This document shows, one piece after another, positions 4,195 through 59,346 of a DNA stretch of 64,000 nt (the first letter of the stretch is position 1; the number at the start of each line of letters is the position of its first letter). A program made the translations under genes and the position numbers. The stretch covers positions 122,561 to 186,560 of the forward strand of contig DASVVE010000016.1 in NCBI GenBank assembly GCA_036386675.1. Direction: 5' to 3'. The notes under the pieces were generated by a model that was not told where the DNA came from, ran no database searches, and worked only from the letters and a program-made list of their open reading frames with translations. The DNA is from Chloroflexia bacterium (GTDB taxonomy: Bacteria > Chloroflexota > Chloroflexia > QHBQ01 > JADMIH01).

Positions 4195-4201
4195 CTGCCC
4201 T

Positions 4202-5044: not shown

Positions 5045-5054
5045 GTGGTTTGAG

Positions 5055-25036: not shown

Positions 25037-27979
25037 CTAACTCGGACCCAGAGTGGGTATAGTTGCGGGAAGAGTCTTGATTAGCTCAACAATGGCTTCC
25101 TGGGCCTGCCCTGAAAGCAGTTGTTGACCTACGGTGATTAACACGATAGCCAGCGGAGACAGATAGCCTAAGATGAAGCGTGCATCTCGTAGCGGGTAGA
25201 AATCAAAAATGTGTCGCCAGTAGTAGCCCTTCTCCCGGACGGTTGTAACGTCCATGAGCACTCCCAGTGCTACCAAAAATACCACTAATTCTAAAGTGCG
25301 GAAGAACCAACTGGTGCTCAGTGCTTGCCCGGTCCATGCATGGATTAAGGCATCGAAGCCCAAGGATAACCCATAAACACCTGCCAGGGCCACACCCTTA
25401 AGTGCACCATTGTTCCACGGCAGGTAAGTCGGCAAGTACGCATACAGACACCCCATGATGAATGCGGCAACTAGCCAGAAAGCTATCTCGTCGAGCACCC
25501 CCCTGGCAATCTGGAACACTGCCATAGTGGATGATGAGAATGCTTCTACTCCGCCCTGAGTGAGAAGTACATAGATGTAAAAGACAATAGGGAACAGGGC
25601 AAGCTTCCAACCGATAGTTACTGCTAGTTGTCCATTCTCCCACCAAGTGTTCCTAGGCCCCAATGCTAAACCGAGCCTATGTGGTGACAAACGCGACGGT
25701 GCCATGTGCGGTAAACGCAGCCATCTCGTCCTTCTGGTCGTGCCCCGTCGCAATGCCTCAATTTCCTGTTCTATAGCTTGATACTCCCGGCTGCTCTCAC
25801 CTGCATCCTTCTTGCCTTCCGAGAATTCCTTGTATTGAGTCGCCTCCTTGTTTTCCAGCCCTCTAATTGCTTTTGCCCGTTCGAGAAATTCGCTAACGAG
25901 GGCGGCACGTCTCGCGAACAGGTCTTCCTGCGTCAAACCAGGATTATGCGCAAGAATGCTGGAAATAACCCTTTCGACAGCCCTGAAGCGCCTCGTAAAA
26001 AGCTTGTTCATCAAGAAGAGAGCTGCGATGAAAGCAAGTGGGACCCCAAAGCCAAATAGTTGGCCGTCGGTGCCCACCACGAACGTGGCAAATAGGAGTG
26101 CCATTGAAGCCAAAGCCCAGCGGTCAGCGCTAAAAAGTAGGACGTTTGGAGACTGCGAAGCCTGGATATACAGCACGCGTAACAAGCCGAACAATGCTAT
26201 GTATGGTAAGAAGGCTATTAATTGAGCAAAAAGACTGAAGGGGTAACTTCCAAGTGAGGCAATTACCGACTCGAACCACTCTGAAGATCCAAAAGTGGAG
26301 GTATTGAATACAGTTTCCGGTGCGCTCCAGATCTTACTTCTTCTATATTCAAGTCTCACCCACTGTGCGAACGTGAGGAGCGCAAGCAAGGCAGGAATGG
26401 CGTTGAGCCACCACTGGTACCTGGCTCCGCGCGCCGGGTCGATCTTGATTACCTTCGCTGCGACTGGGTGCGGAGCGAGTGCGATGGCAAAGCGCACCAG
26501 TCCAGCCAACACGAAATACACCAGGCACAAGAATACCAGGCCGACGAGTAGCAACCACCACGGCTGATCGAACCATTCCCACAACTTATTGTCATTCGGT
26601 GCAGAGCTTGACATAAAATAGGCTATGGAACTGAACGCCGAGGGTAGGTTCAGCACTGTTAAGCTCGCCAAAGTAGTAAGTCCAATCAACAAGCGGTAGA
26701 CAAGTGGTAGCTTTCGGTTAATTTTCCGCCAGAATAGGACAGAGGCTAATGAGAAGAAAAAAGCAGAGGTAAGCAACAAAATTGAGTTCTTGAAGCCGAG
26801 GAGGAGGACCGAATTTCTGACTGTCTCATCGTAAAACCCGGAACCAGGAGCGCTGCTAGAGATGATAAGCGGATAAGCGAATATCCATAATCCATAATAT
26901 AGGAGTCCTTCCGCCGGTAGCAGCATTAGGACCAAAAGCATCCAACGTAGTGATTTTCTTGCAGGTGTCACTACATCTCTTGTGTTCTTTTTCTTCTCGG
27001 CTCCCTTTGCCGCCAGGATTCTAAACGTAGAAAAGAGAATGACGGTAGGTATAGCATAGCTTACGAGTAGGTGCAGAAAGGACCACATCGATTGATCAAC
27101 AAGAGAGCGTAGCACTGTCAGGGACAAATCAGAGGTAAGATGGCCCCGCACAGTCACATCCTGGTCAATGGCATTTTCTGACAGGTTCCAACTCACACTA
27201 CCTTGTTCGTTCAATATTGATGGTGACGGGCTTGCAGAGATGACTCTCATCCCTATCAGTTGCATGTCAATGATCCAGGTTGTCGGCGTCAGCCACTCGG
27301 CGGTTGTGAGTGCATCCCTGCCGCTTATCTCGAAAAATACCTCTGATTCAGAGGAGCTAATGTACCATGGCATTATTGTGCGAGGGTAGGAATAGAGCGC
27401 ATTAGTATTGGTGATAGTCACAGTAGCGACGTTCTGGTCTACTGATATGACAGGCGGCGCAATGCGGCTGAAGCTCTCGTGCCAGGACCCAGGCAATATG
27501 TCTTTCAAAGCCGCAAGGTAGTTCTCATCGTTCCGAGTGTGCCGTAGTAAGGTAGCTACTTCGGGACGGCTCGCGGGGAGGCTGATTGAAAAAGTACTGG
27601 TGACGATAGGGTAGGTAGCGGTGGTTGCGTCAACATCGAGTCGTGTTGTCACAGTTATTGGAGCGGGTGGGGAAGGCGGCGTAGCTACCGTATCGCTCGC
27701 ACCCTCGGGAAGTATAGTGATAGTGAGGGGTGACTGTAGAGTAAGAGTTAATACGGCAGAGACGGCTTCCGCCGGCAGGAGAGATGTTCCTGGCATGCGT
27801 CCAACACCGGGCTCACTATGTAGAGCAGCATTACCAAGCTTTACGTAACTTGACTGCGAAGCCAAATAAGCTGTTGCTCTGGCGGATGTGGTAGTTACAG
27901 TTGAGGCAGCCAAACCAAGGAGTAACAACAATCCGCCGAGTAGCCATATGCTGCGTGGTTGAATTGAGAAGTGTGACAT
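25037..27979 (-). CDS. Large polytopic membrane protein (~980 aa) with a ~330-aa N-terminal extracytoplasmic domain, unknown function
   Basis: Start MSHFSIQPRSIWLLGG... at 27979, preceded by GGAGG. Signal/anchor, then ~18 hydrophobic segments. Visibly lower GC than the flanks. Confidence 0.6.
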   Translation of the reverse strand: MSHFSIQPRSIWLLGGLLLLLGLAASTVTTTSARATAYLASQSSYVKLGNAALHSEPGVGRMPGTSLLPAEAVSAVLTLTLQSPLTITILPEGASDTVATPPSPPAPITVTTRLDVDATTATYPIVTSTFSISLPASRPEVATLLRHTRNDENYLAALKDILPGSWHESFSRIAPPVISVDQNVATVTITNTNALYSYPRTIMPWYISSSESEVFFEISGRDALTTAEWLTPTTWIIDMQLIGMRVISASPSPSILNEQGSVSWNLSENAIDQDVTVRGHLTSDLSLTVLRSLVDQSMWSFLHLLVSYAIPTVILFSTFRILAAKGAEKKKNTRDVVTPARKSLRWMLLVLMLLPAEGLLYYGLWIFAYPLIISSSAPGSGFYDETVRNSVLLLGFKNSILLLTSAFFFSLASVLFWRKINRKLPLVYRLLIGLTTLASLTVLNLPSAFSSIAYFMSSSAPNDNKLWEWFDQPWWLLLVGLVFLCLVYFVLAGLVRFAIALAPHPVAAKVIKIDPARGARYQWWLNAIPALLALLTFAQWVRLEYRRSKIWSAPETVFNTSTFGSSEWFESVIASLGSYPFSLFAQLIAFLPYIALFGLLRVLYIQASQSPNVLLFSADRWALASMALLFATFVVGTDGQLFGFGVPLAFIAALFLMNKLFTRRFRAVERVISSILAHNPGLTQEDLFARRAALVSEFLERAKAIRGLENKEATQYKEFSEGKKDAGESSREYQAIEQEIEALRRGTTRRTRWLRLPHMAPSRLSPHRLGLALGPRNTWWENGQLAVTIGWKLALFPIVFYIYVLLTQGGVEAFSSSTMAVFQIARGVLDEIAFWLVAAFIMGCLYAYLPTYLPWNNGALKGVALAGVYGLSLGFDALIHAWTGQALSTSWFFRTLELVVFLVALGVLMDVTTVREKGYYWRHIFDFYPLRDARFILGYLSPLAIVLITVGQQLLSGQAQEAIVELIKTLPATIPTLGPS

Positions 27980-28180
27980 AACTCGACTACCTCCACTATG
28001 GGAAAGTTCGCTACCATCAGGTGCCCGACATCCCTGCATGTGTCTCACAACGTCCTATATTGTACACAGAACTCATCAAATTTCCATGCAGGGTGAGAGG
28101 TATCCGTAGATGCTGCTAAGGACACGTATCGTGGCGGCATGTGTCCTTAGCAGCATCGCACATGTCGGATGTAATTAAGG

Positions 28181-28343
28181 ATGCAACTACAGGTCAAAAC
28201 TTGCCCATGTTTGCAGTGAAACTTTGCAACTGCCTGTGGAGAAAGTCTGCAACTACCCTCAATTTAGCAAACAAAGTATGCAACTGGCCTCGTACTCCTG
28301 TGCTGCGACGTCGGCCACAGAGTCGCAAATCTCTGCAACTAGC
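28181..28343. promoter_or_regulatory. Array of five direct repeats TGCAACT(A/G)(C/G)C in the upstream region of the large membrane-protein gene
   Basis: Copies at 28181, 28224, 28247, 28278 and 28333. A further copy plus its inverted partner at 28381/28431 form a hairpin. Confidence 0.35.
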
Positions 28344-28380
28344 CTAACCCTCTCTCCTCACAAACTGGTGTAGCTAAACA

Positions 28381-28441
28381 TTGCAACCAGCCTACAGGAC
28401 TCTGAGTTGTTTCTCAAGTCAGAGTCCTGTAGGCTGGTTGC
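28381..28441. terminator. 24-bp perfect inverted repeat hairpin downstream of the lipoprotein gene
   Basis: tgcaaccagcctacaggactctga-gttgtttctcaag-tcagagtcctgtaggctggttgca. Confidence 0.45.
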
Positions 28442-28526
28442 ACTGGGTGTCCGTCCCGAATTGTGGAGCAAAGCTAGACCGATACCACGTGGGGAGCGAG
28501 TAGGCTGTTACGTGCTAGAGATCCAA

Positions 28527-29651
28527 TTATTTATCTGCGCAACTCGCAGTTCCCCAGGATTCGAGTGATAGACTGGTTGGCGGGAACGACTCGTATGCAG
28601 CAACCCTCGTCCAAGCAAAGCCTGAGATATGATACCTTAGACCTTTACCCTGACCTGTCGCTCTGTCCCAGAGGGGTACAGGGACTATGAAACCACTCGT
28701 CTGTAAGAAGTCAAGGGTGCTCCTGGTCTCCGGACTTGTGCCGATGTTCTCGATTGTCTGTAGCCAGTCTCCTACAGATGCCCTATGGTCGTTGGCATCC
28801 TCTGAGTTGGCGTAATTTACGTTCTCGCCGGGCGTTGGTAAGGCAGAAGCTCTACCCGGACTGCCTGTGCCGGAACTGAATGCTAACCATCTGAAGCCCC
28901 GGGCACCCGCAGTATCTAGACTCACCTTGTTCTTGTCGTGGCGACTTTTCGATCCTTTGAAGCTGTCGGCGTGAACTGCCAGAGGATACACCTTACAGGG
29001 GGTGTTGGTCTCCCACTGTCTTGTTTGTAGGTTGTAAGCAATCATAGAGGTGGAACCGTCTTTCTGGGGAGCGATCAGAATAACGCGAGGCAAGTCTATG
29101 TATGCGATGTCCAGGGCGCCTTGCTTCTGTGGCGAGGTATACAGGATAACGTCACTTAGGTCCCGGCCTTCGAGTGTGGTCGTAAAAACCTGAACCGCAC
29201 CCTGTAGCGGATCATCACTTAGCACTCCGGCGTTCAGATACGCATATTCGTTACCCAACTTACCTCCCCAACAGGAAGTCACATGAAAAGTCCTGCTACC
29301 CCCTCCGCACGTTCCCAAACCGGGTTCAGGCGTGTCTTGCGGCTCAGGAGTGGCCGGAGGAGGTAGTGTCGGCATGGGTGCCTTGTTCTCAGCGACCCTG
29401 GTCTTCGCTGCGTCTCGCTTCGCTTGATCCATATCCAGGAAGGCTTGTTTTGTAGCCTCTACTTCCGCACGCGTCGGCGTATGAGTCTGGGAGGCGGCGA
29501 CTGTCTGATTCGGCACGCTGAGGGCATTGCCGGAGTCGTTCTGCGTGTCGTCGTTGTTACCGTTACATCCTGCGATGAGCAACAGGCTCACTAGTAGAGC
29601 AGGTCCCAGTACCCTTATGGCTGTGGTCCGTCTCTTGGTACTCACTTTCAC
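28527..29651 (-). CDS. Lipoprotein (lipobox LIAGC), unknown function
   Basis: N-terminus MKVSTKRRTTAIRVLGPALLVSLLLIAGCNG with a Pro/Thr-rich linker. 374 aa. Confidence 0.65.
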   Translation of the reverse strand: MKVSTKRRTTAIRVLGPALLVSLLLIAGCNGNNDDTQNDSGNALSVPNQTVAASQTHTPTRAEVEATKQAFLDMDQAKRDAAKTRVAENKAPMPTLPPPATPEPQDTPEPGLGTCGGGSRTFHVTSCWGGKLGNEYAYLNAGVLSDDPLQGAVQVFTTTLEGRDLSDVILYTSPQKQGALDIAYIDLPRVILIAPQKDGSTSMIAYNLQTRQWETNTPCKVYPLAVHADSFKGSKSRHDKNKVSLDTAGARGFRWLAFSSGTGSPGRASALPTPGENVNYANSEDANDHRASVGDWLQTIENIGTSPETRSTLDFLQTSGFIVPVPLWDRATGQGKGLRYHISGFAWTRVAAYESFPPTSLSLESWGTASCADK

Positions 29652-29740
29652 TTTGTTCCTCCTGACCCTGGCTTGCTACAAAAGTATGCCCAACCGTACA
29701 CAGTTGATCGCTGGAGTGGTACAAACCTGAGCATACAGGC

Positions 29741-32700
29741 TTATGGATAAATAATGTCGGTTACTCCATATTGCAAAATTGACTGAGGTTCAAGTAAAGG
29801 GTTAGGCACCTTCTGGGGTGCAGTAGGAGATCCAGTTAGGGGAGCATGAGGCGAGCTAAGCATATCTGTCAATGCTTGCCATGCTCGATGAGGTGGTAAG
29901 TAGGGACAGCCAGCACCTCCTGCCGCGCCGCTAGTGCAGGAGTAGGGTTGCCAATTACCCGTGCAGTCGGCCCCGTCCTGGGTCGTACATTTGTCATTAA
30001 ACCGCTCGTTGAAGCGTGCCGGTGTACTTGTCATACGTGCGGCACATGTGCTGTTTACGGCACAGCCTGACATGGCTCCTAAGAAACGCATATTGCTGCC
30101 CTGGTGAACCTTGGCATACCATTTGACGTTGTACCATTCCCACATGTAGGGTGTGAGGTATATTTGTGGCAGCGGCCAGGCATTAACCAAACCATATGAC
30201 ACATAGTACACACGATTCAGTGCCTCGCTTACTAGAGGACTTTGCGCCCATGTTGTCGGGCTCCCGCCTCGGGGGCAGCCCTCACAACTACCAAAGTTGA
30301 ACGCCGCCACATCTGGAATTGAGGTAAAGCCTTCTGCCCAGTACTTGGTCCCAGACTTCGCCGAGTCGTTGATCCTGTATCTACTCCATCGATCTGGATC
30401 GGCTGTCACGTTGTCAGCATTCACATTGGGGCAGGGACCTCGTTCACCTAGCACGGTATCCCTACAGTCCAGGTCAGTGGATGCATAGTACTCAAAGTCA
30501 TAACCACCTGCAAAGCTGACAGCACCACTCAAATATGGGTCTGACGCAGCTTCCTGACGCAGAGCACTTACCATTCCGGCCCACGCCGCTCCATGGCTGT
30601 AATTCAGATCCATATTATCCTGCCAGATATGTGGGCCATCAGCCAGGTACGCGGTATTGCTAACGCCTAGAACGATCGTCAGGTCAGCCACCGTGTTAGG
30701 AGCCTGGCAGCCCTGTCCAAGCGTATAGCCTAGGGCGAACTCTCGCGCTATAGCCTGGACTTCAGCCAACGAAACTAACGTACGAACAACTATGAGTCGT
30801 GCTCCATATTCGACACCTGGTGGGGAACTTACGCTTTGGATATATGGCCCTCCAAAATCCAGCACTACCAGACCTGTCTCGCCTCTTTGCCGCGCTTCAC
30901 ACCCCAAGAGCCGTGCATCGGCAGGATCGGCACTCTGTATGTAATAACTTGTGGTATGTTTTGGAGGTGTCGGTAAGGCAAAGCCCTGGGCTGAAGATAC
31001 CGCCCACTGACCTGTACCTGACTGTGCAGTAGCTACAATTTGATACATCCGGTATGCTGAATCTCCCGGCAGCGTAACTGTGTTCCATCCGCCTGTCAGC
31101 GTAACGGCAGATGTAATCGTTTGGGCGTCAGACATACCGCAGATACCCCATTGGTCGCAACTAACCTGATTTCCAGCTCTAATGTCAATTGTAGTAGCGT
31201 AGTTGCCTTCCTGGTATAGCCTGATAGTACCAACATTCGTAGGTGTTGTCAGGTCAACACGCCAGTTGTCACTTCGTGCCCCCCATATTGTAGCTTCGTT
31301 GCCATCCGTGGCGTTACCGGCCATGTATGCACAGCCACCGAAACATTCGGCACCATCCCAGGCGCGCTTGCCCAGGAACACGTCATCGGGAGGTGGAGGA
31401 GGCGGAGGAGTACCCATGATCCCTTGTATGGTGTGTACTCTCCAGCCGTCCTGTATCCCAATATGTGCTGTTGCTACAATGCTATACATACGGTACGCTG
31501 CATCTCCGGGCAGAGCAATCTCGTTCCACCCATTTACCACAGCCACATTGGCCTTTATTGTTCGCGGATCGCTCGTATCACAAATGCCCCAGCCGTCGCA
31601 CCCTACGACAGTGCCTGCGACTATGTCAACAGCCGTAGCATAGTTTCCGTCCTGGAAGAACGTTATCTTTACGATCGGCACTTGCTGCCCAACATCTACA
31701 CGCCAACTGTTGCTTCTGGCTCCCCAGTACGTGGTGCTGTTGTTGTCTACGGCATTTCCTGCCATGTTGGCACAGCCGCCAAAGCACTCGTTTCCGTCCC
31801 ACGCCGGCTTGCCTAGGAAGACGTCCTCCCCGGCCGCCGGGGTGGCCGGAGTGCTGGAAGGAGTAGCCGTGTTTGTTGATGTGGGTGTCGAGGTAGGTGT
31901 CGAAGTGGATGTAGATGTTGCTGTGAATGTTGGCGTGGGAGTAGCTCCAGGAACACCGTTACAGATGTAGGCATCCTGCACCTTGCTGCCCGTGTTATAG
32001 AGCGAACTGTCCATGTATAGAGGAGCGGACGGCGCGGTTACGGTGCTCGTGTACACAGCTACACCGTTGCGGTAGTAGCGCACTAGCCCCGAGCTACCCA
32101 CTCCAATAGCCAGCTCGTCACCTACGTCGTACAAGCTCACCGCTCCTTTAGTGGTACCGCTCTCTGCAACCGTCAAGCCACTGGTGCCCGGGTCTATATA
32201 GAAGGCGTAGTCCAGGTTCTGCCAGGTAACGTTGTTGGAGGGGTCATCGGAGAGGCCAAACATCAATATGTCCTGCGTCGAGGCCACCGTGGCGCGCACG
32301 TATCCTGTGCTGCCGGGCTGCAGGGCCGCACTAGATATGGCACCCGCGTTCCAGCCCGTACCTCCCGCCGTCTTCGCCAGGGTATTGCCTGTGGGGGTGG
32401 CATTCTGCCCGCCGGTCCACGTTACCGGCTGGCAGTTGCTCGTAGATATAGGTTCAGTGAGGCTGGCACCGCAAAGAGATGCATCCTGCACCTTGCTGCC
32501 CGAAGTGTAAAGGGAGCTATCTAGGAACAGTGGGTACTTGGGCGCTACCGTGCTGGTGTAGAGTAGCTCACCGTTCTTGTAGTAGCGGACGATCTGTGTA
32601 TCGTCCACGGCCACTCGCAACGTGTCCCCGGCATCGTACAGCCCATATCCTCCCCTGTTGGTCCCCTTCTCCACGATCTGTAATTTGCCCGCGTACGGGT

Positions 32701-34150
32701 CTATGTAGAAAGCATAATCGATGCTCTGCCACTGCACGTCAATATCGGAATTGGACAGGCCAAACATGAGGATGTCGCCGGACGAAGCCACTGTCATCTG
32801 AACATAGCCACGCCCTGACAGGATGCCCTTCCTGGAGGCACCTCCTGCGTTCCAGGCGCTGCCCCCGCTTACCTTTGTGATCGTATTCCCTGCGGCCGAG
32901 ACGTTGCGCTTACCCGTCCACGCCCCGTCCAGGCTGTCGCATGGCGACTGAGGCAAAGCCGGGTGCGCGCTCGCCCCACAAATCTGAGCATTCTGTACCT
33001 TACCACCCACATTCCAGATGGAGCTATCCATATAAAGGGGGTAAGTGGGTGCCGCTGTGCTGGTGTAGACGAGCTGGTTATTGAGATAGTATCGCACTAC
33101 CCCCGCTTGGTCTACCGCGATAGTTAGTTCATCTCCCGCATCATACATGCTCCACAAGGCTTTGGTGTTGCCCTTCTCCTGGACTGATAGCACGCCTACG
33201 CCCGGGTCTATATAGAAGGCGTAGTCCAGACTGGTCCAGTTTACGTCGCTGTCCTGGTGGGAGAGGCCAAACATGAGGGTATCGATGCCTGAAGCTATGG
33301 TGGCTCGCACGTACCCGCTGTTGCCGGACTGTATAGCCTGGCTGGAAGCAGCCCCGGCGTTCCAGCCGCTGCCCCCGGCCGTCTTCTGAACAGTGTTGCC
33401 GGTGGACATAGCGTTGCGGGTGTGGACCCACGTCACCGCCTCACAGGTGGAGGTAGGCAGCGGCGCGGGCGCACTGCCCCCGCAAATCTGCGCGTTCTGC
33501 ACCTTGCCGCCCGAGTTCCAGATGGAGCTATCCATGTACAAAGGAAAGGTCGGGGCTACCAGGCTGGTGTAAAGGAGGTTGCCATTGCGATAGTAGCGTA
33601 CTGAAGTACCCTCTACAGCTACTCGCAGTACATCTCCGGCCGCGTATGCGCCGTAGCTGGCGAGGCCAGCTCCACGCTCTATTATCGTGAGACCCCCCGA
33701 GACTGCCGGGTCTATGTAGAACGCGTAGTCAAGAGACTGCCAATGTGCATCTTTATCAATGCGAGACAGCCCGAACATGAGCGTATGGCTGGTTGAAGCC
33801 ACCGTCGCTTCAACATGCCCGCTGCTTCCCGATTGGATGCCTACACTGGAAGCGGCACCTGCATTCCAGGCGCTACCGCCCGCTGTTTTCTCAATCGTGT
33901 TGCCGGTAGCAACCACGTTCCGCTTGTGGACCCATGTTACTGCCTGGCAGTCTTCCGGTCCGCTCATGAGGGCTGCCGCCGACGCAACGTCAACACCTGG
34001 GAAGGGGGTGAGGGTGACCGACTGTAGTGAGAGGGATGAAAGGGTGAGAAACAGGATCACCATGAAGACGATGCGAAGATACCAATGGGAAGAGCGTGGG
34101 CGGAACATGATGTGGGGGCATCCCTTCGCGTGTGAACGCATGTAGAACAC
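29741..34150 (-). CDS. Giant secreted multidomain protein (1469 aa): 5x LamG/ConA-like repeats, 2x discoidin (F5/8 type C)-like domains, and a ~500-aa Cys-containing C-terminal domain
   Basis: Five ~150-aa repeats with TGNTxxKTAGGxxWNAGAxS...MFGLS...DYAFYIDP...GDxLxVAV...RYYxNGxLxYTS. PT/S-rich and poly-Pro linkers. AWDGxECFGGCAxMAGNAxDxNxxTxWGARS discoidin-like modules. The start is uncertain among three Met codons (34150, 34141, 34108). Confidence 0.7.
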   Translation of the reverse strand: MFYMRSHAKGCPHIMFRPRSSHWYLRIVFMVILFLTLSSLSLQSVTLTPFPGVDVASAAALMSGPEDCQAVTWVHKRNVVATGNTIEKTAGGSAWNAGAASSVGIQSGSSGHVEATVASTSHTLMFGLSRIDKDAHWQSLDYAFYIDPAVSGGLTIIERGAGLASYGAYAAGDVLRVAVEGTSVRYYRNGNLLYTSLVAPTFPLYMDSSIWNSGGKVQNAQICGGSAPAPLPTSTCEAVTWVHTRNAMSTGNTVQKTAGGSGWNAGAASSQAIQSGNSGYVRATIASGIDTLMFGLSHQDSDVNWTSLDYAFYIDPGVGVLSVQEKGNTKALWSMYDAGDELTIAVDQAGVVRYYLNNQLVYTSTAAPTYPLYMDSSIWNVGGKVQNAQICGASAHPALPQSPCDSLDGAWTGKRNVSAAGNTITKVSGGSAWNAGGASRKGILSGRGYVQMTVASSGDILMFGLSNSDIDVQWQSIDYAFYIDPYAGKLQIVEKGTNRGGYGLYDAGDTLRVAVDDTQIVRYYKNGELLYTSTVAPKYPLFLDSSLYTSGSKVQDASLCGASLTEPISTSNCQPVTWTGGQNATPTGNTLAKTAGGTGWNAGAISSAALQPGSTGYVRATVASTQDILMFGLSDDPSNNVTWQNLDYAFYIDPGTSGLTVAESGTTKGAVSLYDVGDELAIGVGSSGLVRYYRNGVAVYTSTVTAPSAPLYMDSSLYNTGSKVQDAYICNGVPGATPTPTFTATSTSTSTPTSTPTSTNTATPSSTPATPAAGEDVFLGKPAWDGNECFGGCANMAGNAVDNNSTTYWGARSNSWRVDVGQQVPIVKITFFQDGNYATAVDIVAGTVVGCDGWGICDTSDPRTIKANVAVVNGWNEIALPGDAAYRMYSIVATAHIGIQDGWRVHTIQGIMGTPPPPPPPDDVFLGKRAWDGAECFGGCAYMAGNATDGNEATIWGARSDNWRVDLTTPTNVGTIRLYQEGNYATTIDIRAGNQVSCDQWGICGMSDAQTITSAVTLTGGWNTVTLPGDSAYRMYQIVATAQSGTGQWAVSSAQGFALPTPPKHTTSYYIQSADPADARLLGCEARQRGETGLVVLDFGGPYIQSVSSPPGVEYGARLIVVRTLVSLAEVQAIAREFALGYTLGQGCQAPNTVADLTIVLGVSNTAYLADGPHIWQDNMDLNYSHGAAWAGMVSALRQEAASDPYLSGAVSFAGGYDFEYYASTDLDCRDTVLGERGPCPNVNADNVTADPDRWSRYRINDSAKSGTKYWAEGFTSIPDVAAFNFGSCEGCPRGGSPTTWAQSPLVSEALNRVYYVSYGLVNAWPLPQIYLTPYMWEWYNVKWYAKVHQGSNMRFLGAMSGCAVNSTCAARMTSTPARFNERFNDKCTTQDGADCTGNWQPYSCTSGAAGGAGCPYLPPHRAWQALTDMLSSPHAPLTGSPTAPQKVPNPLLEPQSILQYGVTDIIYP

Positions 34151-34865
34151 CTGTCTATAGAGGATACTGCCTCAAGACCAGGTGCTCGCCTTTATTAGGT
34201 TGTAACAGCTTGCAGTAGGAATAGAGTTCCTACCGGAGTCCAACAGAACAGCAAACGTAGGGCGTGACAACGACGATAAATCTCCTGACTATAGAGGTCA
34301 AGAGACTGAACGGCCTTGGTAAACACGTAAGGTCGCTGCACACGCTACACGGCGATACAGAGCGCGCCCGTGTGCAATCAACGCGAAGTGACGGTTTGCG
34401 GTTTTTGGTGAGCTTAGTTTACGAAAGTCGACCTTTACAAACAAGCTAATTGACTACGTAGTTTAGCGTAACTATGGTCTTAAGCACGTGGCGATGGAAA
34501 TGGAGAGCGACCAATTACGGAATGTAGTGAGAAATGGCGGATTGGCAGACATAGTAACATGAATTACAAGCCACAACCCCACTCCCTGGTAGGTCAGCCC
34601 ACTCTATCGGAGATAGGGTGCGCGCAACGTTATTGGTGTTAATCATGATTGCTAAGATACGGGCGTCACACCTAAATCCTCCATCCATATGTGTTGCACT
34701 TGACTGGTTACCAACCTGTGACTACACACATCATGACGCGGCTGCATGTTAGGCCCGACACAAAGAACATGTAGCGGTGAAGATCAGCATTGTTGTAATG
34801 GACCACCCGCCACGGGTATAGATGGAAAAGAAAGGACATATGCGATATGACTAAAGTCGATACTA

Positions 34866-35766
34866 AGAGCGCCTTTCAAAACCTGGCCCGTGACTTGCGG
34901 TGGTAGTGGGCACTATGAGCAAGCCACTAGTACCAGACGAACTATGGGAGATTGTAGAGCCACTGTTGCCAGCTGAGCCACCTAAGCCAAAGGGAGGTCG
35001 TCCTCGCGGGCCGGGCCGAGCAGCCCTTGCAGGGCTCATCTTCGTGCTGCGAAGGGGCCTACCCTGGGAGATGCTACCCCAAGAGATGGGCTGTGGGAGT
35101 GGAGTAACCTGCTGGCGCAGATTGCGTGAGTGGCAGAAGAAGGGAGTGTGGCGCAAGCTGCACAGGGCGTTGCTCAACCGCCTGGGAGAAGCAGACAAGA
35201 TAGATTGGTCACGCGCCAGCCTGGACTCAGATACTGTTCCAGCTAAGGGTGTAAAAAGGGGGACCCGAAAGCTACGGCTGTTGGGCCGAACCCCACAGAT
35301 AAGGGCAACACCCAGAGGGTGCCCGGCACGAAGCGCCATGTTGTGGTCGAGCGGCAAGGCATACCGCTGGCCGTGAAACTCACCGGTGCCAACACCCACG
35401 ACTCGAAGGTGTTCGAGGAGATGGTGGACAGCATAGAACCTATCAAACGTCCACTCGGCAAGCCTGGCCGACCTCGCAAGCGCCCGGACAAGTTGCACGC
35501 TGACAAGGCGTATGACATATCCAGGTGCCGCAAGGCTCTTGCGAAGAGGGGCATCAAGTGTCGCATAGCGCGTAAAGGAGTAGAGAGCAGCCAGAAGCTG
35601 GACAGGCACAGGTGGGTGGTTGAGCGCACCCTCTCCTGGCTCGACCGTAAACGTCGGCTCACCATCCGCTACGAGCGTCGTGACGATATTCACCTGGCGT
35701 TCCTGCATCTTGGTTGTGTCCTCATCTGCCTCAATCACCTGTTATGATGGTTTTGAAGGGCGCTCT
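34866..35766 (+). mobile_element. IS5-family (IS427-group-like) insertion sequence, ~900 bp, with 18-bp imperfect terminal IRs
   Basis: IRL agagcgcctttcaaaacc (34866-34883) matches IRR ggttttgaagggcgctct (35749-35766) with one mismatch. Encloses orfA/orfB. Confidence 0.85.
34900..35747 (+). CDS. IS5/IS427-type transposase orfAB, produced by a -1 programmed frameshift at A AAA AGG (35253-35259)
   Basis: orfA 34900-35376 (frame 1) and orfB 35319-35747 (frame 3). The -1 fusion reads ...GVKKGDPKATAVGPNPTDKGNTQRVPGTKRHVVVERQGIPLAVKLTGANTHDS, the typical IS5 DDE transposase context. Confidence 0.8.
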
Positions 35767-35892
35767 AAGCACATCGCACTTGGCCAGTTGCAGACTTTTG
35801 CTTCACCTCAGTTGCAAGGCTTGTCACACTATAGTTGCAAACTTTATGGGATCCGACAGTGCAGTAGGAGATCCTCGCCTATCGTCCATTGT

Positions 35893-36831
35893 CTACTTCA
35901 GTAGCGGGCTTTTGCCTCCCCAGTGCTTGGAGAAGTGGTCGTAGAATAGGAAGTTCTGGGCGTAGCCTGCATACTTGCCGAAGCGGTCGCGGAAGGCCCC
36001 GACCACGGCGTTGTAGGCGGAGGTGGTAATCGTCTTGCGGTCGGCCCAGTCGGGGAAGTAGAGGTCCTTGGCAAGCTGCCACACGTGGGTGTCTACCGGC
36101 ACCGCCTCGGGCTTGTCCAGCGAGAAGAGGCACACGCAGTCGGCTATCTTGGCCCCGATGCCGTTTAGAGCCACCAGTTCGCGGTGAGCTTGCTCGTATG
36201 GCATGTCGCGCAACGAGTAGGCCCAGCCCGGCCCCCGCTCTACTATTTGCCTGGCGACCTTAACGATGTTGGTTGCTCTGAAGCCCAGCGAAGATATGCG
36301 CGTCAGGTGGTTCACGTCGCAGTGGGCCAGGGTCTCCGCGTTGGGGAAGGAAAAGTAGCGCGTGCCGTCCAGTTCTGCTACCAGGTCTCCATACTCGCGG
36401 CTGAACACGCTGATGGAGTAGGCGATCCGGGGTACGCTGTTCGCGGTGGAGCAGACGAACGATAGGATACACTCCTCCGGCTCTTGCCGCGCCACCCGCA
36501 GGCCCGACCAACGCCGCGCCGCCTCACCCGCAGCCGGGTCTGCCGCCTCGATAAGCCGGACGATTTCTCCCATGTTTACACCAAGTTGGAAATAGTCGCG
36601 GATCAGCGCATCGTCGGAGGCCTGCGGATAAGTCCACCATGTGAAGCGCTCACCGTCCTGCCTTATGCCTACGACGGTGGCCCGCACCACGCCCGTCCAC
36701 CAGCCGTCCGCGTTGCGCTTCCAGCGGAAAGCTTGCCCGGAGGCCAGCGTGTCGTCAAGGGAGAACTGTAGAGGGTCGTAAGTGAACGAGTTAAGTTGCA
36801 ACTGGGGAGGGGTGTATGTGGTCATACGCAA
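35893..36831 (-). CDS. ogg: 8-oxoguanine DNA glycosylase / AP lyase (OGG1 family, HhH-GPD)
   Basis: OGG_N region followed by an HhH-GPD motif LVALNGIGAKIADCVCLF...PVDTHV. Confidence 0.75.
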   Translation of the reverse strand: MRMTTYTPPQLQLNSFTYDPLQFSLDDTLASGQAFRWKRNADGWWTGVVRATVVGIRQDGERFTWWTYPQASDDALIRDYFQLGVNMGEIVRLIEAADPAAGEAARRWSGLRVARQEPEECILSFVCSTANSVPRIAYSISVFSREYGDLVAELDGTRYFSFPNAETLAHCDVNHLTRISSLGFRATNIVKVARQIVERGPGWAYSLRDMPYEQAHRELVALNGIGAKIADCVCLFSLDKPEAVPVDTHVWQLAKDLYFPDWADRKTITTSAYNAVVGAFRDRFGKYAGYAQNFLFYDHFSKHWGGKSPLLK

Positions 36832-38428: not shown

Positions 38429-38529
38429 TTAATTACGAATTACTAATTACGAATTACCAATTGTTTGTTACGAACCACGAATTACCACTTCCGAAATACC
38501 TGAGTAATTCGTAATTAGTAATTCGTAAC
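38429..38529. repeat. Palindromic element of TAATTACGAAT tandem repeats between rpmA and rpmE
   Basis: aattacgaattactaattacgaattaccaatt ... gagtaattcgtaattagtaattcgtaa. Confidence 0.75.
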
Positions 38530-38533
38530 TCGG

Positions 38534-38830: not shown

Positions 38831-38847
38831 TGCTTTCTCCCTTCGGG

Positions 38848-38934
38848 AGAGTGGATAGTGGATAGTGGATAGTGGTTAGAAGCTCTTTGCTAACCACTAT
38901 CCACTATCCACTATCCACTATCCACTATCCACTC
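38848..38934. repeat. Palindromic element of GTGGATA tandem repeats between rplU and rpmA
   Basis: gagagtggatagtggatagtggatagtggttag-aagctctttg-ctaaccactatccactatccactatccactatccactcc. Confidence 0.75.
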
Positions 38935-39252: not shown

Positions 39253-39488
39253 CTAATTTCCTCCGCTACTATTTGGGTCACAGCCTCTAATTATATCCGC
39301 GTTTGGGCGTGCTGTCAAGCGTGAAACTCGAGGCGAGAGCGCAGCTTAGGGGTCGCGGATTCTCTGCATGTGCAGTACGTACGGTATGCAGCCGGAAGCA
39401 GCGGAAGCGCAAGTAGTACAAATACGAGGAGGACTTGCACCGGCTCATGCTCTGCATGTTCAGGAAGCTGGCTGAAGGGGCAAGACAG

Positions 39489-40088
39489 CTAAGGACTAGC
39501 GTGGAGAGTGTTGAGGATCAGAGAAGCATTGCGCGCCCAAGTCTCACGATAGAAGGCGAGGATTAAGAGGTCCATGTAATGGCCGTTCCAAAAGACGTGC
39601 TCCCGCAATCGCCCTTCTTCAACGAAGAACCGCCCAATGCCGCTCTTGAAGCCCTGGTAGCTCTCTTCAGTGCTCTCCATATAGATCTTTCTGAAGGGCC
39701 AGGCGTTGAACGCATAGTTGAAGCCCAGCGCTATGCCCTCGGCAATCAGCCCGGCCCCCTGCACTTCGGGCACGCCAATCGCTGAAAGGTAGGCGAAGCC
39801 ATCCCGAAAGTTGGGCGAAGTAATTGCGATTAGTCCCAAAGGTTGCCCGGAATCGACGCCTTCGACAATAAACTGGGCAAGGACGCTCTCCCATAGTGAC
39901 CCGGCGATCTTGTCTGGGCTAGGCGTGGCCCCGGCGAAACGGACACGCCCGCCGGACAACGGCGAGGTCATAAGGTCATAAAGAAAGAAGCTGTCCTGGT
40001 CTGAAATGACCCGCAGGCGGATGTGCCGCGTGCGCATCAGCGGGAAGGGACGTAGTGGCTGTTGTCCGGTAGCGGAGTCGTCAGACAA
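39489..40088 (-). CDS. GNAT-family acetyltransferase (Acetyltransf_3/RimL-like)
   Basis: TRHIRLRVISDQD...LYDLM N-terminus typical of PF13302. Last gene of the MauE-like operon. Confidence 0.7.
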   Translation of the reverse strand: MSDDSATGQQPLRPFPLMRTRHIRLRVISDQDSFFLYDLMTSPLSGGRVRFAGATPSPDKIAGSLWESVLAQFIVEGVDSGQPLGLIAITSPNFRDGFAYLSAIGVPEVQGAGLIAEGIALGFNYAFNAWPFRKIYMESTEESYQGFKSGIGRFFVEEGRLREHVFWNGHYMDLLILAFYRETWARNASLILNTLHASP

Positions 40089-40812
40089 GACTTATGGCCC
40101 CGGCCAGAATGAACAGGCTGGCAGCTACCGAGACGAAGCTGTCAGAGCCGCGAATGAAGAGGCTGGCGGACTGCAAGCGGTTGGAGGCGACCAGTTGCAT
40201 CATAAGCGGCACGGCTCGCCCGAGTCCAAACCCCAGGGCCACAAGCAGAGCATTTGCAAGGGTGAATTGTGCAAGGAGTAGTGCGAGCAGCAGAATATAG
40301 GGTGCGGCTGAGGGCACGTAGGTGCGCAGTCCCGTTCCTAGTTCCACTCCGAACCGGTAGGCACCGCGAACGAGGCTCCCACCGAACACCTCGGCAGGGA
40401 TCAGGCGCCGCGACTCAGGTAAAGAGATGATGCTCGACAGCGGGCCATCCTTGGACAACAAGACAAAGACCGCTGCTATGCCAAGCATGGCAGCCCGCAC
40501 CTCAGCACTGAGCGGTTCGGCAAAACCGCTCAGTACCCACGCGCAAAATCCTGTGAGCAAGGCTCCATGCGAAGTCCCCACCAGGTATGCGGCGACGATC
40601 TTATAGTCGAACAGGGACCGATGTCTCTTGGGCGGCAGCAACACGGCTGCGCTGTTAAGACTTCAAATCGACCCCGCGAGCGACAACCCCGCAGCGAAGC
40701 CTATGCTCAGTGTAATGAGTGTTTCGGTCCGCACGAGCGCGGTCGCACCGATAAGCCCGGCGAGGATCACCCAGATCCACGAAACTGGTCTTGTCAAGGC
40801 ACTTATGGACAT
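40081..40812 (-). CDS. Integral membrane protein interrupted by a single in-frame TGA (plus 40663-40665). Possibly a CcdA/DsbD-like thiol-disulfide transporter; either a pseudogene or recoded.
   Basis: ORFs 40663-40851 and 40081-40644 are in the same frame, separated only by tga: ...FAAGLSLAGSI*SLNSAAVLLPPKRH.... ~8 TM in total. The resemblance to the CcdA motif AGLxSFxSPCVLPLLP is loose. Confidence 0.35.
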
Positions 40813-41447
40813 AGCGTTAGCTGGTCGTCGCAGGACACGAGGCCCTGGCATATAGTAGGCTCCCAGTAATCGTTACCGTCAAACTTCTTGTAGCCATCGT
40901 GGCACCGGAATACCGCCGACTGCTGGCAGTTCCCACAAGCGCCCACCTTCCACTTCCAGGCATCTTTGCCGTTGCAAACGTCAGGCTCTCTGTCTTTGTA
41001 CTGAATACTACCTCGCAGGCCGGTGAAATGCCAGTTGTACGATGGATTGTTGACTGGATCGGCAGCCTGCTCGGCGCACGTAGCACAAAACCAGGGGTCC
41101 ATATGGTCTGGAGCGAAGCCAAAGCAAGCTTCGTTGCAGGTACCGCCATATGGAGGATAGCCTGCACAATCGTAGTAGGTGGTGTAACTTGCACTGGCTG
41201 CCCGTTCGAGCGTCCCGATATTCGCTAATTCGCCGAGCGCTCCGAGAGCGCCTCCTCTTGCGGCCGTTGCCGTCTGCAAGCGCTGCACAAGTTGCATTCC
41301 GAGAGGTACCCCAATCAAGCTCAAGATGTTGCCCTTGCGCATTGGATGGTCCGGGTATGCTTCCACAACGTCCGAGTCGGTGCTGGGCCGCCGCCCCAAC
41401 CTTTCCGCTCCTTCGATAGTAGGAATGTCCTGTATGTCAAAGTTCAT
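40803..41447 (-). CDS. 12-Cys protein with an N-terminal ~90-aa non-hydrophobic region and a ~125-aa C-terminal Cys/Trp-rich domain
   Basis: Strong RBS aggagg 6 nt upstream of ATG 41447. C-terminal domain YYDCAGYPPYGGTCNEACFG...DPWFCATCAEQ...VCNGKDAWKWKVGACGNCQQ...RCHDGY...YWEPTICQGLVSCDDQLTLCP. No N-terminal signal peptide. Confidence 0.55.
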   Translation of the reverse strand: MNFDIQDIPTIEGAERLGRRPSTDSDVVEAYPDHPMRKGNILSLIGVPLGMQLVQRLQTATAARGGALGALGELANIGTLERAASASYTTYYDCAGYPPYGGTCNEACFGFAPDHMDPWFCATCAEQAADPVNNPSYNWHFTGLRGSIQYKDREPDVCNGKDAWKWKVGACGNCQQSAVFRCHDGYKKFDGNDYWEPTICQGLVSCDDQLTLCP

Positions 41448-41494
41448 GGTGGTCCTCCTGTCATTTGATCCCCACTAGCTAGATGGAATATCGA

Positions 41495-42013
41495 CTATGC
41501 AACCGCCAGCAGTTTATTAAGCGAATCCAACGAATTGATTGGCGTTGCTTTGAGGACTCTGCCATCTGCGCCTGCTACGAGTGCAAAAGGGGTGACCCGG
41601 ATCCCAAGCTCGGTACTGATTTGCGGCCCGGCGTGCAGGACGGTGGCATTTGAGGGAATGTCCGGGGCAGGCGAGGGCAACTGATCGACCCAGGCAACGG
41701 CCAGGGGGGCGTTCGACGGCAGATGCAGATGCTGTAGCTCGTTCAATACGCGCGCGCATGAAGTGCAATTCGAGGAGAGGAATACAAGCACCCGTGGTAC
41801 TACAGGCGACTCCCCGAGGAGGTCCTGTAATCGTCTACCGAGCAAGTTAGCATAGGGTGTGTTTTCCTTGGAAACGGACGCGGCCCGTTCGAGTCGCTGT
41901 AGCCGCGAGTGCAGGTTCCCGATTACCAGCATGAGCAAGAGCACCGCAACCCAGGTGACAAAGAGAGCGGCGAAAGCGAAGCTTGACCGGGAGTCCAGCA
42001 AAGTATCAAACAT
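41495..42013 (-). CDS. Membrane-anchored thioredoxin-like protein (TlpA/ResA/MauD-like), CxxC = CTSC
   Basis: N-terminal TM FAFAALFVTWVAVLLLMLVIG, then a redoxin-fold region VLVFLSSNCTSCARVL. Confidence 0.7.
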   Translation of the reverse strand: MFDTLLDSRSSFAFAALFVTWVAVLLLMLVIGNLHSRLQRLERAASVSKENTPYANLLGRRLQDLLGESPVVPRVLVFLSSNCTSCARVLNELQHLHLPSNAPLAVAWVDQLPSPAPDIPSNATVLHAGPQISTELGIRVTPFALVAGADGRVLKATPINSLDSLNKLLAVA

Positions 42014-43285: not shown

Positions 43286-43779
43286 AAGACACCTCCTCGC
43301 TCAATAGTTCAGCTTTAAGGAACATATTGCGGTCTATTCGAGGCTGAATAGACCTTGTTGTCAGGGGACTCCCAGGCCGCCGGGCCGGCTAAGAAGGATA
43401 CGCTAGAGGTATGGCGGGTGCGGAAGCTATGATTCGAGTATGGACCAGTCGAATGGAGAGCTTTACCGGTTGTTAGATTTGCAAGTTGCCTGGGGACGTT
43501 ATAGCAGTCTAGCTTTGAAGCATAGATTCTCGTGCAAAGTAGTTAGATCTTGTTAGACCAGTAGATTGTACGACAATCAGATAGCTAACATTCTACATCC
43601 AGTCAACTCCTATGTCAATAGGTTTCACAAGAAACGACGAAGCAGTAGAGTGAGCTAGGCCTTGACGTTTGGACCAGGGAAGCAAATTTCACCGTTCCCT
43701 CTATTACCGGGTGCTCATAAGTGGGGCTGTGCCGTGGCTGGTTTGTTGCTCATGGACACTAGTTTTCACCGAACGTGCT

Positions 43780-59328: not shown

Positions 59329-59346
59329 AACTCCTCCATGTCATAA

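What the first reader, a model, noticed from the sequence alone, without database searches (positions are those of the whole stretch)
27980..28526. Iteron-like array of TGCAACT(R)(S)C direct repeats plus two perfect hairpins in the control region of the island's membrane-protein gene
There are five direct copies (28181-28343) at irregular 23-55 bp spacing. A sixth copy and its inverted partner form a 24-bp perfect stem (28381-28441). A separate 17-bp perfect inverted repeat gatgctgctaaggacac/gtgtccttagcagcatc lies at 28110-28159. Such repeat arrays are typical binding platforms for a dedicated regulator, or iterons, and do not occur elsewhere in the window.
Basis: seen in the sequence. Interest (0 to 1): 0.6.

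Follow-up and report, generated by a model that had tools for sequence, protein, structure and literature searches.

The report
Transposon-end repeat arrays, not iterons
The flagged repeat array is real, but it is one of two mirror-image arrays that bracket a 7.7-kb block of cargo genes beside a DNA-repair gene in an uncultured Chloroflexia bacterium, so it looks like the end of a Tn7/Mu-type transposon without its own transposase rather than a gene switch or a replication origin.

Summary
The claim that the motif occurs nowhere else in the window is wrong. A second, inverted cluster of three copies lies at 35782-35852. Both clusters end outward in the same 8-mer, TGTCGGAT, which occurs only twice in the window. 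Each copy sits exactly 11 nt beyond the outermost repeat. Together they delimit an element at 28163-35858.

- **Architecture:** TGT...ACA termini, six spaced ~20-bp sites at one end, and three packed sites at the end 34 bp after the ogg stop codon. This is the layout of Tn7, which I checked on a real copy.
- **Conservation:** A related genome keeps the six-site array copy for copy but with other cargo and other flanks, and homology stops at the terminus. Three relatives keep the ogg-proximal end. One relative has an empty site.
- **Selection:** Site cores are more conserved than spacers.
- **Against:** There is no transposase between the ends, no clean 5-bp duplication, and no copy at another locus.

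Best reading (about 0.55): a non-autonomous or relic Tn7/Mu-type element. The array is not tied to the membrane-protein gene, and it shows no origin features. The main rival is binding sites for a host protein.

The parts
28163..35858 (.). Whole element bounded by the two inverted termini (7,696 bp including a later IS insertion). It lies inside the low-GC island at about 25.0-35.9 kb.
   Evidence: TGTCGGAT occurs only at 28163 (+) and 35858 (-) in the 64 kb, each 11 nt outside the outermost repeat. GC is 0.50-0.55 against 0.60-0.65 for the surroundings.
28163..28170 (+). Terminus of the spaced ('left-type') end: 5'-TGTCGGAT.
   Evidence: Homology with L130 stops exactly here.
28169..28392 (+). 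Six subterminal ~20-bp sites with consensus aAAGTyTGCAACTrGCC. Weight-matrix windows are 28169-28192, 28212-28235, 28235-28258, 28266-28289, 28321-28344 and 28369-28392.
   Evidence: Conserved copy for copy in L130:12538-12770 at 79% overall, with TTGCA cores 29/30 identical.
28379..28445 (.). Hairpin I1. Site 6 plus 17 further nt pair with an inverted partial copy (28431-28442). It lies 82 nt after the stop of the 374-aa gene, so it is probably that operon's terminator-type hairpin. It is absent from L130.
   Evidence: Long perfect hairpins without a U-tract follow homologous genes in L146 and L149.
28527..29651 (-). Cargo gene for a 374-aa predicted secreted protein or lipoprotein, with no Pfam family.
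   Evidence: Homologues at other loci carry no end arrays.
29741..34150 (-). Cargo gene for a 1,455-1,469-aa secreted repeat protein with an F5/8 type C (galactose-binding-like) domain.
34867..35765 (+). IS5-family insertion sequence with two overlapping ORFs (DUF4096 and DDE_Tnp_1). It has a TAA target duplication at 34864-34866 and 35766-35768 and is inserted 14 nt inside the third site of the packed end. It arrived later and is unrelated to the arrays.
35782..35852 (-). Three closely packed sites with 23/24-bp spacing, forming the 'right-type', ogg-proximal end. Weight-matrix windows are 35782-35805, 35806-35829 and 35829-35852.
   Evidence: Homologous ends lie next to ogg in L130, L139 and L140.
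35851..35858 (-). Terminus of the packed end, reading ATCCGACA on the + strand. It lies 34 nt after the ogg stop codon.
35893..36825 (-). ogg, the 8-oxoguanine DNA glycosylase gene. It is the conserved gene whose 3' end the packed end abuts, so it is the candidate attachment-site gene.
28109..28157 (.). Hairpin I2: a 17-bp perfect inverted repeat 5 nt outside the terminus, so it is not part of the element. It may be the original ogg terminator displaced by the insertion, or an insulator or operator ahead of the DUF6185 promoter.
   Evidence: Not conserved in L130. ogg is followed by hairpins in L134 and L142. The functional assignment is inferred.
28059..28086 (-). Sigma-70-like promoter match (TGGAAA-16-TACAAT) for the DUF6185 gene, outside the element.
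   Evidence: This is a consensus match only.
25037..27979 (-). DUF6185 membrane-protein gene (980 aa). It is part of the low-GC island but lies outside the repeat-bounded element.

Best explanation
The flagged array is the 'left-type' end of a transposon of the Tn7/Mu/IS21 kind. These are DDE (RNase-H-fold) transposases that bind several ~20-bp subterminal sites. Its partner, the 'right-type' end, lies at 35782-35858.

**Proposed structure and mechanism**
- The element (28163-35858) has termini 5'-TGTCGGAT...ATCCGACA-3'.
- It has six spaced sites at one end and three packed sites at the end that lies 34 bp after the stop codon of ogg.
- In such elements the transposase binds the repeated sites, pairs the two ends, cleaves at the terminal TGT/ACA, and joins the ends to a target chosen by a selector protein that recognises the 3' end of a conserved gene.
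- This element carries only cargo: two secreted-protein genes plus a later IS. It is therefore either mobilised in trans by a transposase encoded elsewhere, or a relic whose ends are still kept.
- It probably inserted between ogg and its terminator hairpin (I2).

**Shown**
- The two inverted arrays, the shared 8-nt terminus and the fixed 11-nt offset.
- Conservation of the ends with different cargo and different flanks in relatives.
- An empty site in one relative.
- Stronger conservation of site cores than of spacers.

**Inferred**
- That the binding protein is a transposase.
- That ogg is an attachment site.
- That I2 was the ogg terminator.
For: 1. **Mirror symmetry.** TGTCGGAT occurs twice in 64 kb, at 28163 (+) and 35858 (-). 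Each copy is exactly 11 nt outside the outermost TGCAACT copy of an array whose copies all point inward. A matching 8-mer at the same offset has a chance of about 1.5e-5.
2. **Same anatomy as Tn7, measured on a real copy** (R721, L145: 14,067 bp, 5-bp duplication GTGCG).
   - Tn7 has TGT termini, with the first site core 23 nt from the tip. Here the TGCAACT core starts at nt 20, so the AACT-type core compared with Tn7 starts at nt 22.
   - Tn7's right end has four sites at 20-21-bp spacing. Here there are three sites at 23-24 bp.
   - Tn7's left end has three sites spread over 143 bp. Here there are six sites over 230 bp.
   - Terminal sequences compare as TGTGGGCGGACAATAAAGTCTTAAACT (Tn7) against TGTCGGATCCCATAAAGTTTGCAACT (here).
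   - Site matrices correlate at 0.44 against a null of 0.26 +/- 0.07, with 28 of 2,000 shuffles as good. The alignment was anchored by me, so this is weak support.
   - Benler et al. 2021 (PMC8649781) report that inverted arrays of TnsB sites are the feature uniting Tn7-like elements. The outermost site sits a median of 12 bp from the boundary, and the Tn7 clade includes Chloroflexi.
3. **Boundary behaviour.** L130 (ogg 94% identical) keeps the six-site block at 79% identity, copy for copy. Homology starts at site 6 and stops at ...ATCCGACA, with unrelated DNA on both sides and different cargo (a WD40 gene) between its two ends.
4. **The packed end abuts ogg in four genomes** (window, L130, L139, L140), 19-34 nt after the stop. 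L132 has ogg directly followed by the rhodanese gene, which is an empty site.
5. **Constraint on the sites.**
   - Left end: cores 29/30, site flanks 65/78, spacers 90/125 identical (Fisher p = 0.003).
   - Right end in three genomes: terminus 24/24, cores 45/45, spacers 37%.
6. **Compatible with an old insertion.** The flanks TGCAC and TGTGC match at 3 of 5 positions (chance about 0.10). Hairpin I2 starts right after them, where a displaced ogg terminator would lie.
Against: - **No transposase.** No transposase, AAA+ helper or TniQ/TnsD-like gene lies between the ends or anywhere in the window or the related loci. Pfam finds only an unrelated IS5 transposase. tblastn with Tn7 TnsA-E finds nothing at E <= 1.
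- **No clean 5-bp target duplication.** The match is 3/5 in the window and 0/5 around the L130 unit.
- **No copy of the ends at any locus other than ogg.**
   - Exact-pattern scans of GTDB representative genomes, JGI metagenomes and IMG/VR found only simple repeats or chance hits.
   - Plasmid and phage collections gave no match.
   - These collections evidently do not hold the source genome, so the test is weak.
- **The right end looks vertically inherited.** Its divergence is comparable to neutral intergenic DNA. Conserved cores in situ would therefore fit a host-level function as well as repeated replacement by active copies.
- **The cargo gene is not tied to the ends.** Its homologues sit elsewhere without them.
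Confidence: 0.55

Rival explanations
1. The arrays are binding platforms for a host regulator or architectural protein that recognises the TTGCAA core. They control or insulate the accessory genes of this hot spot. They resemble transposon ends because they descend from co-opted ends, or by convergence.
For: Cores are under constraint in copies that appear vertically inherited, with no linked transposase. Each array lies upstream of a co-directional gene in both genomes: the right-type array lies upstream of the 1,469-aa gene or the WD40 gene, and the left-type array lies upstream of the DUF6185 gene or SpvB. Other islands at this hot spot carry their own repeated motifs next to a regulator (L142).
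Against: The island encodes no DNA-binding protein. The array is kept in L130 without a DUF6185 gene and 1.4 kb from the next gene. This reading gives no reason for a conserved 8-mer at a fixed 11-nt offset on the outer side of both arrays in mirror symmetry, or for homology to stop exactly at that 8-mer.
Confidence: 0.22
2. The arrays are arm-type sites of a tyrosine-recombinase integrative element, that is, attL and attR of an island integrated at the 3' end of ogg.
For: Integrated lambda-type elements carry repeated arm sites near both junctions, packed on one arm and spaced on the other (established knowledge). The location at the 3' end of a conserved gene and the variable cargo also fit.
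Against: No integrase or excisionase gene is in the island or the window. The sequence shared by the two junctions is inverted, not a direct core repeat. There is no tRNA gene. The sites are ~20 bp, not ~10 bp.
Confidence: 0.05
3. The array is a set of plasmid-type iterons, meaning the origin of an integrated replicon, with the inverted copy acting as a Rep operator.
For: The units are ~20 bp, and some are spaced 23-24 bp apart. One inverted partial copy exists.
Against: There is no Rep-like gene, no DnaA boxes, no AT-rich unwinding region and no GC-skew turn. Spacing in the flagged array is irregular at 23-55 bp. A second, inverted array lies 7.6 kb away. There is no similarity to any plasmid in PLSDB.
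Confidence: 0.02
4. The copies are chance clustering of a short word, or a by-product of the lineage's repeat-rich terminator hairpins.
For: The genome is full of inverted heptamer-repeat hairpins, and I1 and I2 resemble lineage-typical terminator hairpins. Exact-pattern hits in other phyla were simple tandem repeats.
Against: Enrichment is far above the shuffles. The array is conserved copy for copy in another species. The copies are not tandem, and the two clusters are too far apart to pair.
Confidence: 0.02

Closest known systems
Tn7 and Tn7-like transposons (TnsB-binding-site arrays; att-site insertion directed by TnsD/TniQ)
   Same: It shares TGT/ACA termini and an 8-nt tip followed about 12 nt later by the first of several ~20-bp sites. 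The sites are direct within an end and inverted between ends. One end is packed and adjacent to the 3' end of a conserved gene, and the other is spaced. Cargo is variable. The site consensus is partly alike: AAAGT..(A/C)AACT.
   Different: It has no tnsA/B/C or target-selector genes and no clean 5-bp duplication. There are six sites over 230 bp at the spaced end, against three over about 150 bp. Site spacing is 23-24 bp against 20-21 bp. I found no report of ogg as an attachment gene in the papers searched. No second-locus copy was found.
Defective Tn402/Tn5053 derivatives (class 1 integron backbones) and mini-Tn7 constructs: ends without working transposition genes, moved in trans
   Same: They consist of ends plus cargo only. 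This is a precedent for persistence and trans-mobilisation of such elements (established knowledge; mini-Tn7 and mini-Tn6022 were used in PMC11014353).
   Different: Those have known parent elements with matching ends. No parent is known here.
Phage Mu ends (MuA sites L1-L3 and R1-R3) and IS21-family ends (multiple IstA sites)
   Same: They have TG...CA tips and several ~20-bp transposase sites per end, with an asymmetric spaced and packed layout. The transposase is helped by an AAA+ partner (established knowledge).
   Different: Mu is a roughly 37-kb phage, and IS21 elements are 2-2.7 kb and carry istAB. Neither inserts at a fixed gene end. Both make target duplications.
Ancestral Tn7-like remnants at an attachment site (nrdB site of Acinetobacter baumannii)
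   Same: An old insertion is retained across related genomes downstream of a conserved gene, with partial loss of element parts (PMC11014353).
   Different: There the ends are hard to recognise and some copies keep tns genes. Here the ends are well kept and the genes are gone.
Plasmid iterons
   Same: They are repeated ~20-bp protein-binding units, some about 23 bp apart.
   Different: This array has no Rep gene and no origin features. It has a mirror-image partner array and terminal TGT tips.

Membership tests
Tn7-like transposon | Terminal 5'-TGT...ACA-3' | tested here: met
   TGTCGGAT at 28163 (+) and at 35858 (-). The same tip occurs in L130 (both ends), L139 and L140.
Tn7-like transposon | Arrays of three or more ~20-bp sites, direct within an end and inverted between ends, with the outermost site about 12 bp from the boundary | tested here: met
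   Six sites at 28169-28392 (+) and three at 35782-35852 (-). The first TGCAACT core starts at nt 20 from the tip (the AACT-type core at nt 22), against nt 23 for the core in Tn7. The criterion comes from PMC8649781.
Tn7-like transposon | Asymmetric ends: packed sites at the end next to the attachment gene, spaced sites at the other | tested here: met
   Spacing is 23/24 bp next to ogg and 43/23/31/55/48 bp at the far end. Tn7 shows 20-21 bp and 64/56 bp.
Tn7-like transposon | 5-bp target-site duplication | tested here: not met
   In the window the flanks are TGCAC and TGTGC, matching 3/5 (chance about 0.10). In L130 they are GACGT and CGAAA, matching 0/5. The Tn7 control shows GTGCG on both sides.
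Tn7-like transposon | tnsB-type DDE transposase with an AAA+ TnsC and a TniQ/TnsD selector inside the element | tested here: not met
   Pfam on all element ORFs and 30 window ORFs finds only an IS5 DDE_Tnp_1. tblastn with Tn7 TnsA-E finds no hit at E <= 1 in the window or in nine related loci.
Tn7-like transposon | Evidence of mobility: the same ends at other loci, or occupied and empty sites with exact boundaries | tested here: inconclusive
   There is an empty ogg-rhodanese junction in L132, but it is too diverged for a base-exact boundary. No other locus was found, but the collections scanned lack the source genome.
Plasmid iteron origin | Adjacent Rep initiator gene | tested here: not met
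   No Rep-like family was found in the island proteins.
Plasmid iteron origin | DnaA boxes, an AT-rich unwinding region and a skew turn | tested here: not met
   No TTWTNCACA match lies within 9 kb. GC is about 0.50, with no AT-rich block and no skew inflection.
Dedicated-regulator operator array | Regulator gene in the locus, and sites that travel with the regulated promoter | tested here: not met
   There is no DNA-binding protein in the island. The array is conserved in L130 without the DUF6185 gene or its promoter.
Tyrosine-recombinase island (attL/attR with arm sites) | Integrase gene and a direct core repeat at both junctions | tested here: not met
   There is no integrase. The shared junction sequence is inverted.

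The most novel reading that the evidence does not exclude
A clade of uncultured Chloroflexia keeps a pair of Tn7-type transposon ends at the 3' end of ogg as a long-lived landing pad. The termini and site cores are held under selection across species without any linked transposase, while the cargo between and beyond them (secreted, lectin-like, WD40 and toxin-complex proteins) is swapped. That would mean one of three things. There may be a family of transposase-less cargo shuttles driven in trans by an undescribed ogg-targeting Tn7-like system. The host may have co-opted the ends as regulatory sites. Or the host may have co-opted the ends to block further insertions at the locus (target immunity).
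Probability: 0.25. Interest if true: 0.65.

Novelty: new variant of a known kind. Interest (0 to 1): 0.45.

Why it matters
- **It corrects the annotation.** The array is not a promoter-control region or a replication origin. It marks the boundary of a mobile or formerly mobile cargo block, which redraws the island into an element (28163-35858) plus an older DUF6185 segment.
- **It gives a concrete search key.** TGTCGGAT-N11-TGCAACT arrays can be used to look for the matching transposase in Chloroflexia, a phylum with almost no genetic tools. A selector that targets the ogg 3' end would be a new site-specific insertion system.
- **The conservation raises a testable question.** The ends are conserved across species without a linked transposase. 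This makes it possible to test whether transposon ends can be kept by the host or by repeated replacement.

Tried and rejected
- **Rfam.** The whole window at gathering thresholds gave nothing. Permissive mode over 27900-28600 gave only sub-threshold miRNA-hairpin matches to I1, which are meaningless.
- **Triple-core pattern on IMG/VR.** It returned more than 120 hits, all generic tandem repeats. The pattern was too loose.
- **Stricter pattern on GTDB genomes.** The eight hits were simple AGTTGCA-type tandem repeats in Bacteroidota and Acidobacteriota, and none was in Chloroflexi. The source genome is not in that set.
- **End pattern on JGI metagenomes.** The four hits carried no further sites, so they are chance matches.
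- **End pattern on IMG/VR.** It returned no hits.
- **blastn of the array against plasmids and phages.** No match.
- **Homologues of the DUF6185 protein.** Only the protein itself was found.
- **Homologues of the 374-aa cargo protein.**
  - They occur at other loci (L146, L149) without end arrays, so cargo did not lead to more ends.
  - The same search did identify a near-identical JGI contig.
- **Search for a third end near the rhodanese gene.** The TTGCAA-like word there belongs to the conserved rhodanese promoter region, which is also present in L132 and L134. No weight-matrix hit was found there.
- **Sigma-54 and tandem-promoter readings of the motif.** I rejected these by inspecting the spacing.
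- **Supplement of Benler et al.** The only Chloroflexi entry held there has a different site motif, and the stored file is truncated.

Full report
**Setting**

The region 27980-28526 is the spacer between two minus-strand genes. One is a 980-aa DUF6185 membrane protein (25037-27979). The other is a 374-aa predicted secreted protein or lipoprotein (28527-29651). Both lie in a low-GC stretch at about 25.0-35.9 kb, with GC of 0.50-0.55 against 0.60-0.65 elsewhere. That stretch also holds a 1,469-aa secreted protein and an IS5-family insertion sequence.

The organism is an uncultured member of Chloroflexota, class Chloroflexia, judged from the names attached to close ogg homologues. Identical or near-identical DNA is present in ENA assembly ERZ27253081. 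It is also present in JGI metagenome 3300034760, which is 99.986% identical over 20.7 kb.

**Observation**

- They are far above chance.
- Both hairpins are very stable, with z-scores of -9.8 and -6.1.
- The statement that the motif occurs nowhere else in the window is wrong. Three more copies, in the opposite orientation and 23-24 bp apart, lie at 35786-35839. This is between the IS and the stop codon of ogg.
- A weight matrix built only from sites in other genomes picks out exactly nine strong sites in the window. Six are at 28169-28392 (+) and three at 35782-35852 (-).

**The key anatomy**

Read from the outside inwards, the two clusters begin alike:

- TGTCGGAT-gtaattaagga-TGCAACT... at 28163 (+)
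- TGTCGGAT-cccataaagtt-TGCAACT... at 35858 (-)

The 8-mer occurs only at these two places in 64 kb, each time exactly 11 nt outside the outermost repeat. The two clusters are therefore inverted ends of one 7,696-bp unit with TGT...ACA tips. One end has six spaced sites. The other has three packed sites, and that end lies 34 nt after the ogg stop.

The IS (34867-35765, TAA duplication) is a later simple insertion inside this unit.

**Related genomes**

Homologues of ogg gave nine related loci.

- **Empty site.** In L132, ogg is followed directly by the rhodanese and DUF711 genes.
- **Hot spot.** L134, L141 and L142 carry other genes in this interval, so it is a hot spot for variable content.
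- **Packed end next to ogg.** L130 (ogg 94% identical), L139 and L140 have the same packed end next to ogg, beginning with TGTCGGAT 19-31 nt after the stop. They have two to five sites.
- **Six-site block in L130.** It is kept copy for copy at 79% identity. Homology starts at site 6 and ends exactly at ...ATCCGACA.
- **Cargo in L130.** A WD40 gene lies between the two ends. Beyond the spaced end lies unrelated DNA and an SpvB-type gene, not a DUF6185 gene.

The array therefore travels with its terminus, not with the membrane-protein gene.

**Constraint**

- Between the window and L130, the TTGCA cores are 29/30 identical, the site flanks 65/78 and the spacers 90/125 (p = 0.003).
- At the packed end in three genomes, the 8-nt tip is 24/24 identical, the cores 45/45 and the spacers 37%.
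- These are functional protein-binding sites, not drift.
- Overall divergence of the packed end is similar to neutral intergenic DNA of the backbone. The ends therefore look old and vertically inherited, except that the L130 packed end is decaying.

**Comparison with a real Tn7**

I confirmed my recollection of the Tn7 right end by a 120/120 match to plasmid R721 and read both ends from that record.

| Feature | Tn7 (R721) | This element |
|---|---|---|
| Tips | TGT...ACA | TGT...ACA |
| 5-bp duplication | GTGCG on both sides | none clean |
| First AACT-type site core from tip | nt 23 | nt 22 (TGCAACT starts at nt 20) |
| Packed end | four sites at 20-21 bp, next to the attachment gene | three sites at 23-24 bp, next to ogg |
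| Spaced end | three sites | six sites |

The layout here is the same in kind. The site consensus is partly alike (AAAGT...AACT), but the matrix comparison gives only modest support (28 of 2,000 shuffles as good, with an anchor I chose). Benler et al. 2021 describe inverted arrays of TnsB sites about 12 bp from the boundary as the uniting feature of Tn7-like elements, and they place Chloroflexi elements in the Tn7 clade.

**What is missing**

- No transposase, AAA+ helper or selector gene is in the element, the window or the related loci.
- The flanks do not form a clean 5-bp duplication. The match is 3/5 in the window and 0/5 in L130.
- No copy of the ends was found anywhere but next to ogg. 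The large scans needed exact patterns and evidently do not contain the source genome, so this is a weak negative.
- Homologues of the 374-aa cargo gene occur at other loci without ends.
- L130 seems to hold a decayed older packed end behind its present unit, which would explain mismatched flanks through nested or tandem history. That is inference.

**The hairpins**

I1 lies 82 nt after the 374-aa gene. It is made of site 6 plus 17 nt and an inverted partial copy, and it is absent from L130. Homologous genes elsewhere are followed by similar long perfect hairpins without U-tracts. The window is also full of inverted heptamer-repeat hairpins between genes. I1 is therefore most simply this lineage's kind of terminator.

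I2 lies 5 nt outside the terminus and is not conserved in L130. ogg in other genomes is followed by a hairpin. I2 may therefore be the ogg terminator pushed 7.7 kb away by the insertion, or an insulator ahead of the DUF6185 promoter match at 28086-28059. This is inference.

**Verdict**

The best-supported reading (about 0.55) is that the flagged array is the spaced end of a Tn7/Mu-type element. The element has no transposition genes of its own, so it is either moved in trans or is a relic. It sits at the 3' end of ogg.

I do not file it as a member of the Tn7-like family, because two defining features were tested and not met: the transposition genes and the duplication. It has the anatomy of such an end and probably works like one.

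- **Main rival (about 0.22):** a host protein uses these sites, perhaps on co-opted ends.
- **Poorly supported:** iterons, integrase arm sites and chance.

Noticed in passing
window 59346-59443; 38846-38933; 38431-38532; 2829-2978; 3989-4195; also L134:4530-4580 and L146:3990-4060: Many intergenic inverted pairs of tandem heptamer arrays, for example (AGTGCCG)n facing (CTCGGTA)n. They form long hairpins after genes. They look like a lineage-typical terminator or repeat class and are not in Rfam.
   Followed up: partly
window 34867-35765: IS5-family insertion sequence with two overlapping ORFs (DUF4096 and DDE_Tnp_1), 17-nt inverted ends and a TAA duplication. It is inserted just inside the packed transposon end. 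A remnant of the same IS occurs in L149.
   Followed up: yes
window 39322-43800: A 4.5-kb block absent from the related genome L130. It holds six small genes, including a MauE-like membrane protein, a thioredoxin-like protein and a Cys-rich secreted protein. It is possibly a peptide-maturation or redox cluster.
   Followed up: partly
ogg-rhodanese interval: window 25037-35892; L130, L134, L140, L141, L142; empty in L132: This interval is a hot spot with different cargo in every related genome. The cargo includes WD40 plus SpvB, ADH plus cyclase, a 489-aa orphan, a propeller protein, and GH18 plus SLH plus a LuxR regulator plus a BTAD/NB-ARC protein. Some of these genomes lack the repeat-bounded ends.
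   Followed up: partly
L142:3640-3665, 4070-4095, 5040-5065: Three copies of GCGTCGGTAAAA(C/T)GTCGGG lie upstream of genes beside a LuxR-type response regulator. This is a likely true regulator-site set in another island at the same hot spot.
   Followed up: no
L125:4428-4560; L129:6950-7160: In Thermoanaerobaculia and Acidobacteriota MAGs, tandem (AGTTGCAG)n runs are followed by inverted (TGCAACTC)n runs. These are simple-repeat hairpins that share the heptamer by coincidence.
   Followed up: no
L130:12771-13000: Behind the spaced end of the L130 unit lies what looks like a decayed older packed end (the shared 'acaagcct' context). It is followed by DNA homologous to window 34696-34867. This suggests nested or tandem insertions at the ogg site.
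   Followed up: partly
window 28095-28170: The terminal ATCCG of the element can pair with CGGAT at 28100-28104 across hairpin I2, extending the predicted fold. This is probably chance.
   Followed up: no
window 47181-47353: An 84-bp tandem repeat of 2.1 copies (76% matches) lies inside or near the 685-aa ORF at 47018-49075. It was not examined.
   Followed up: no
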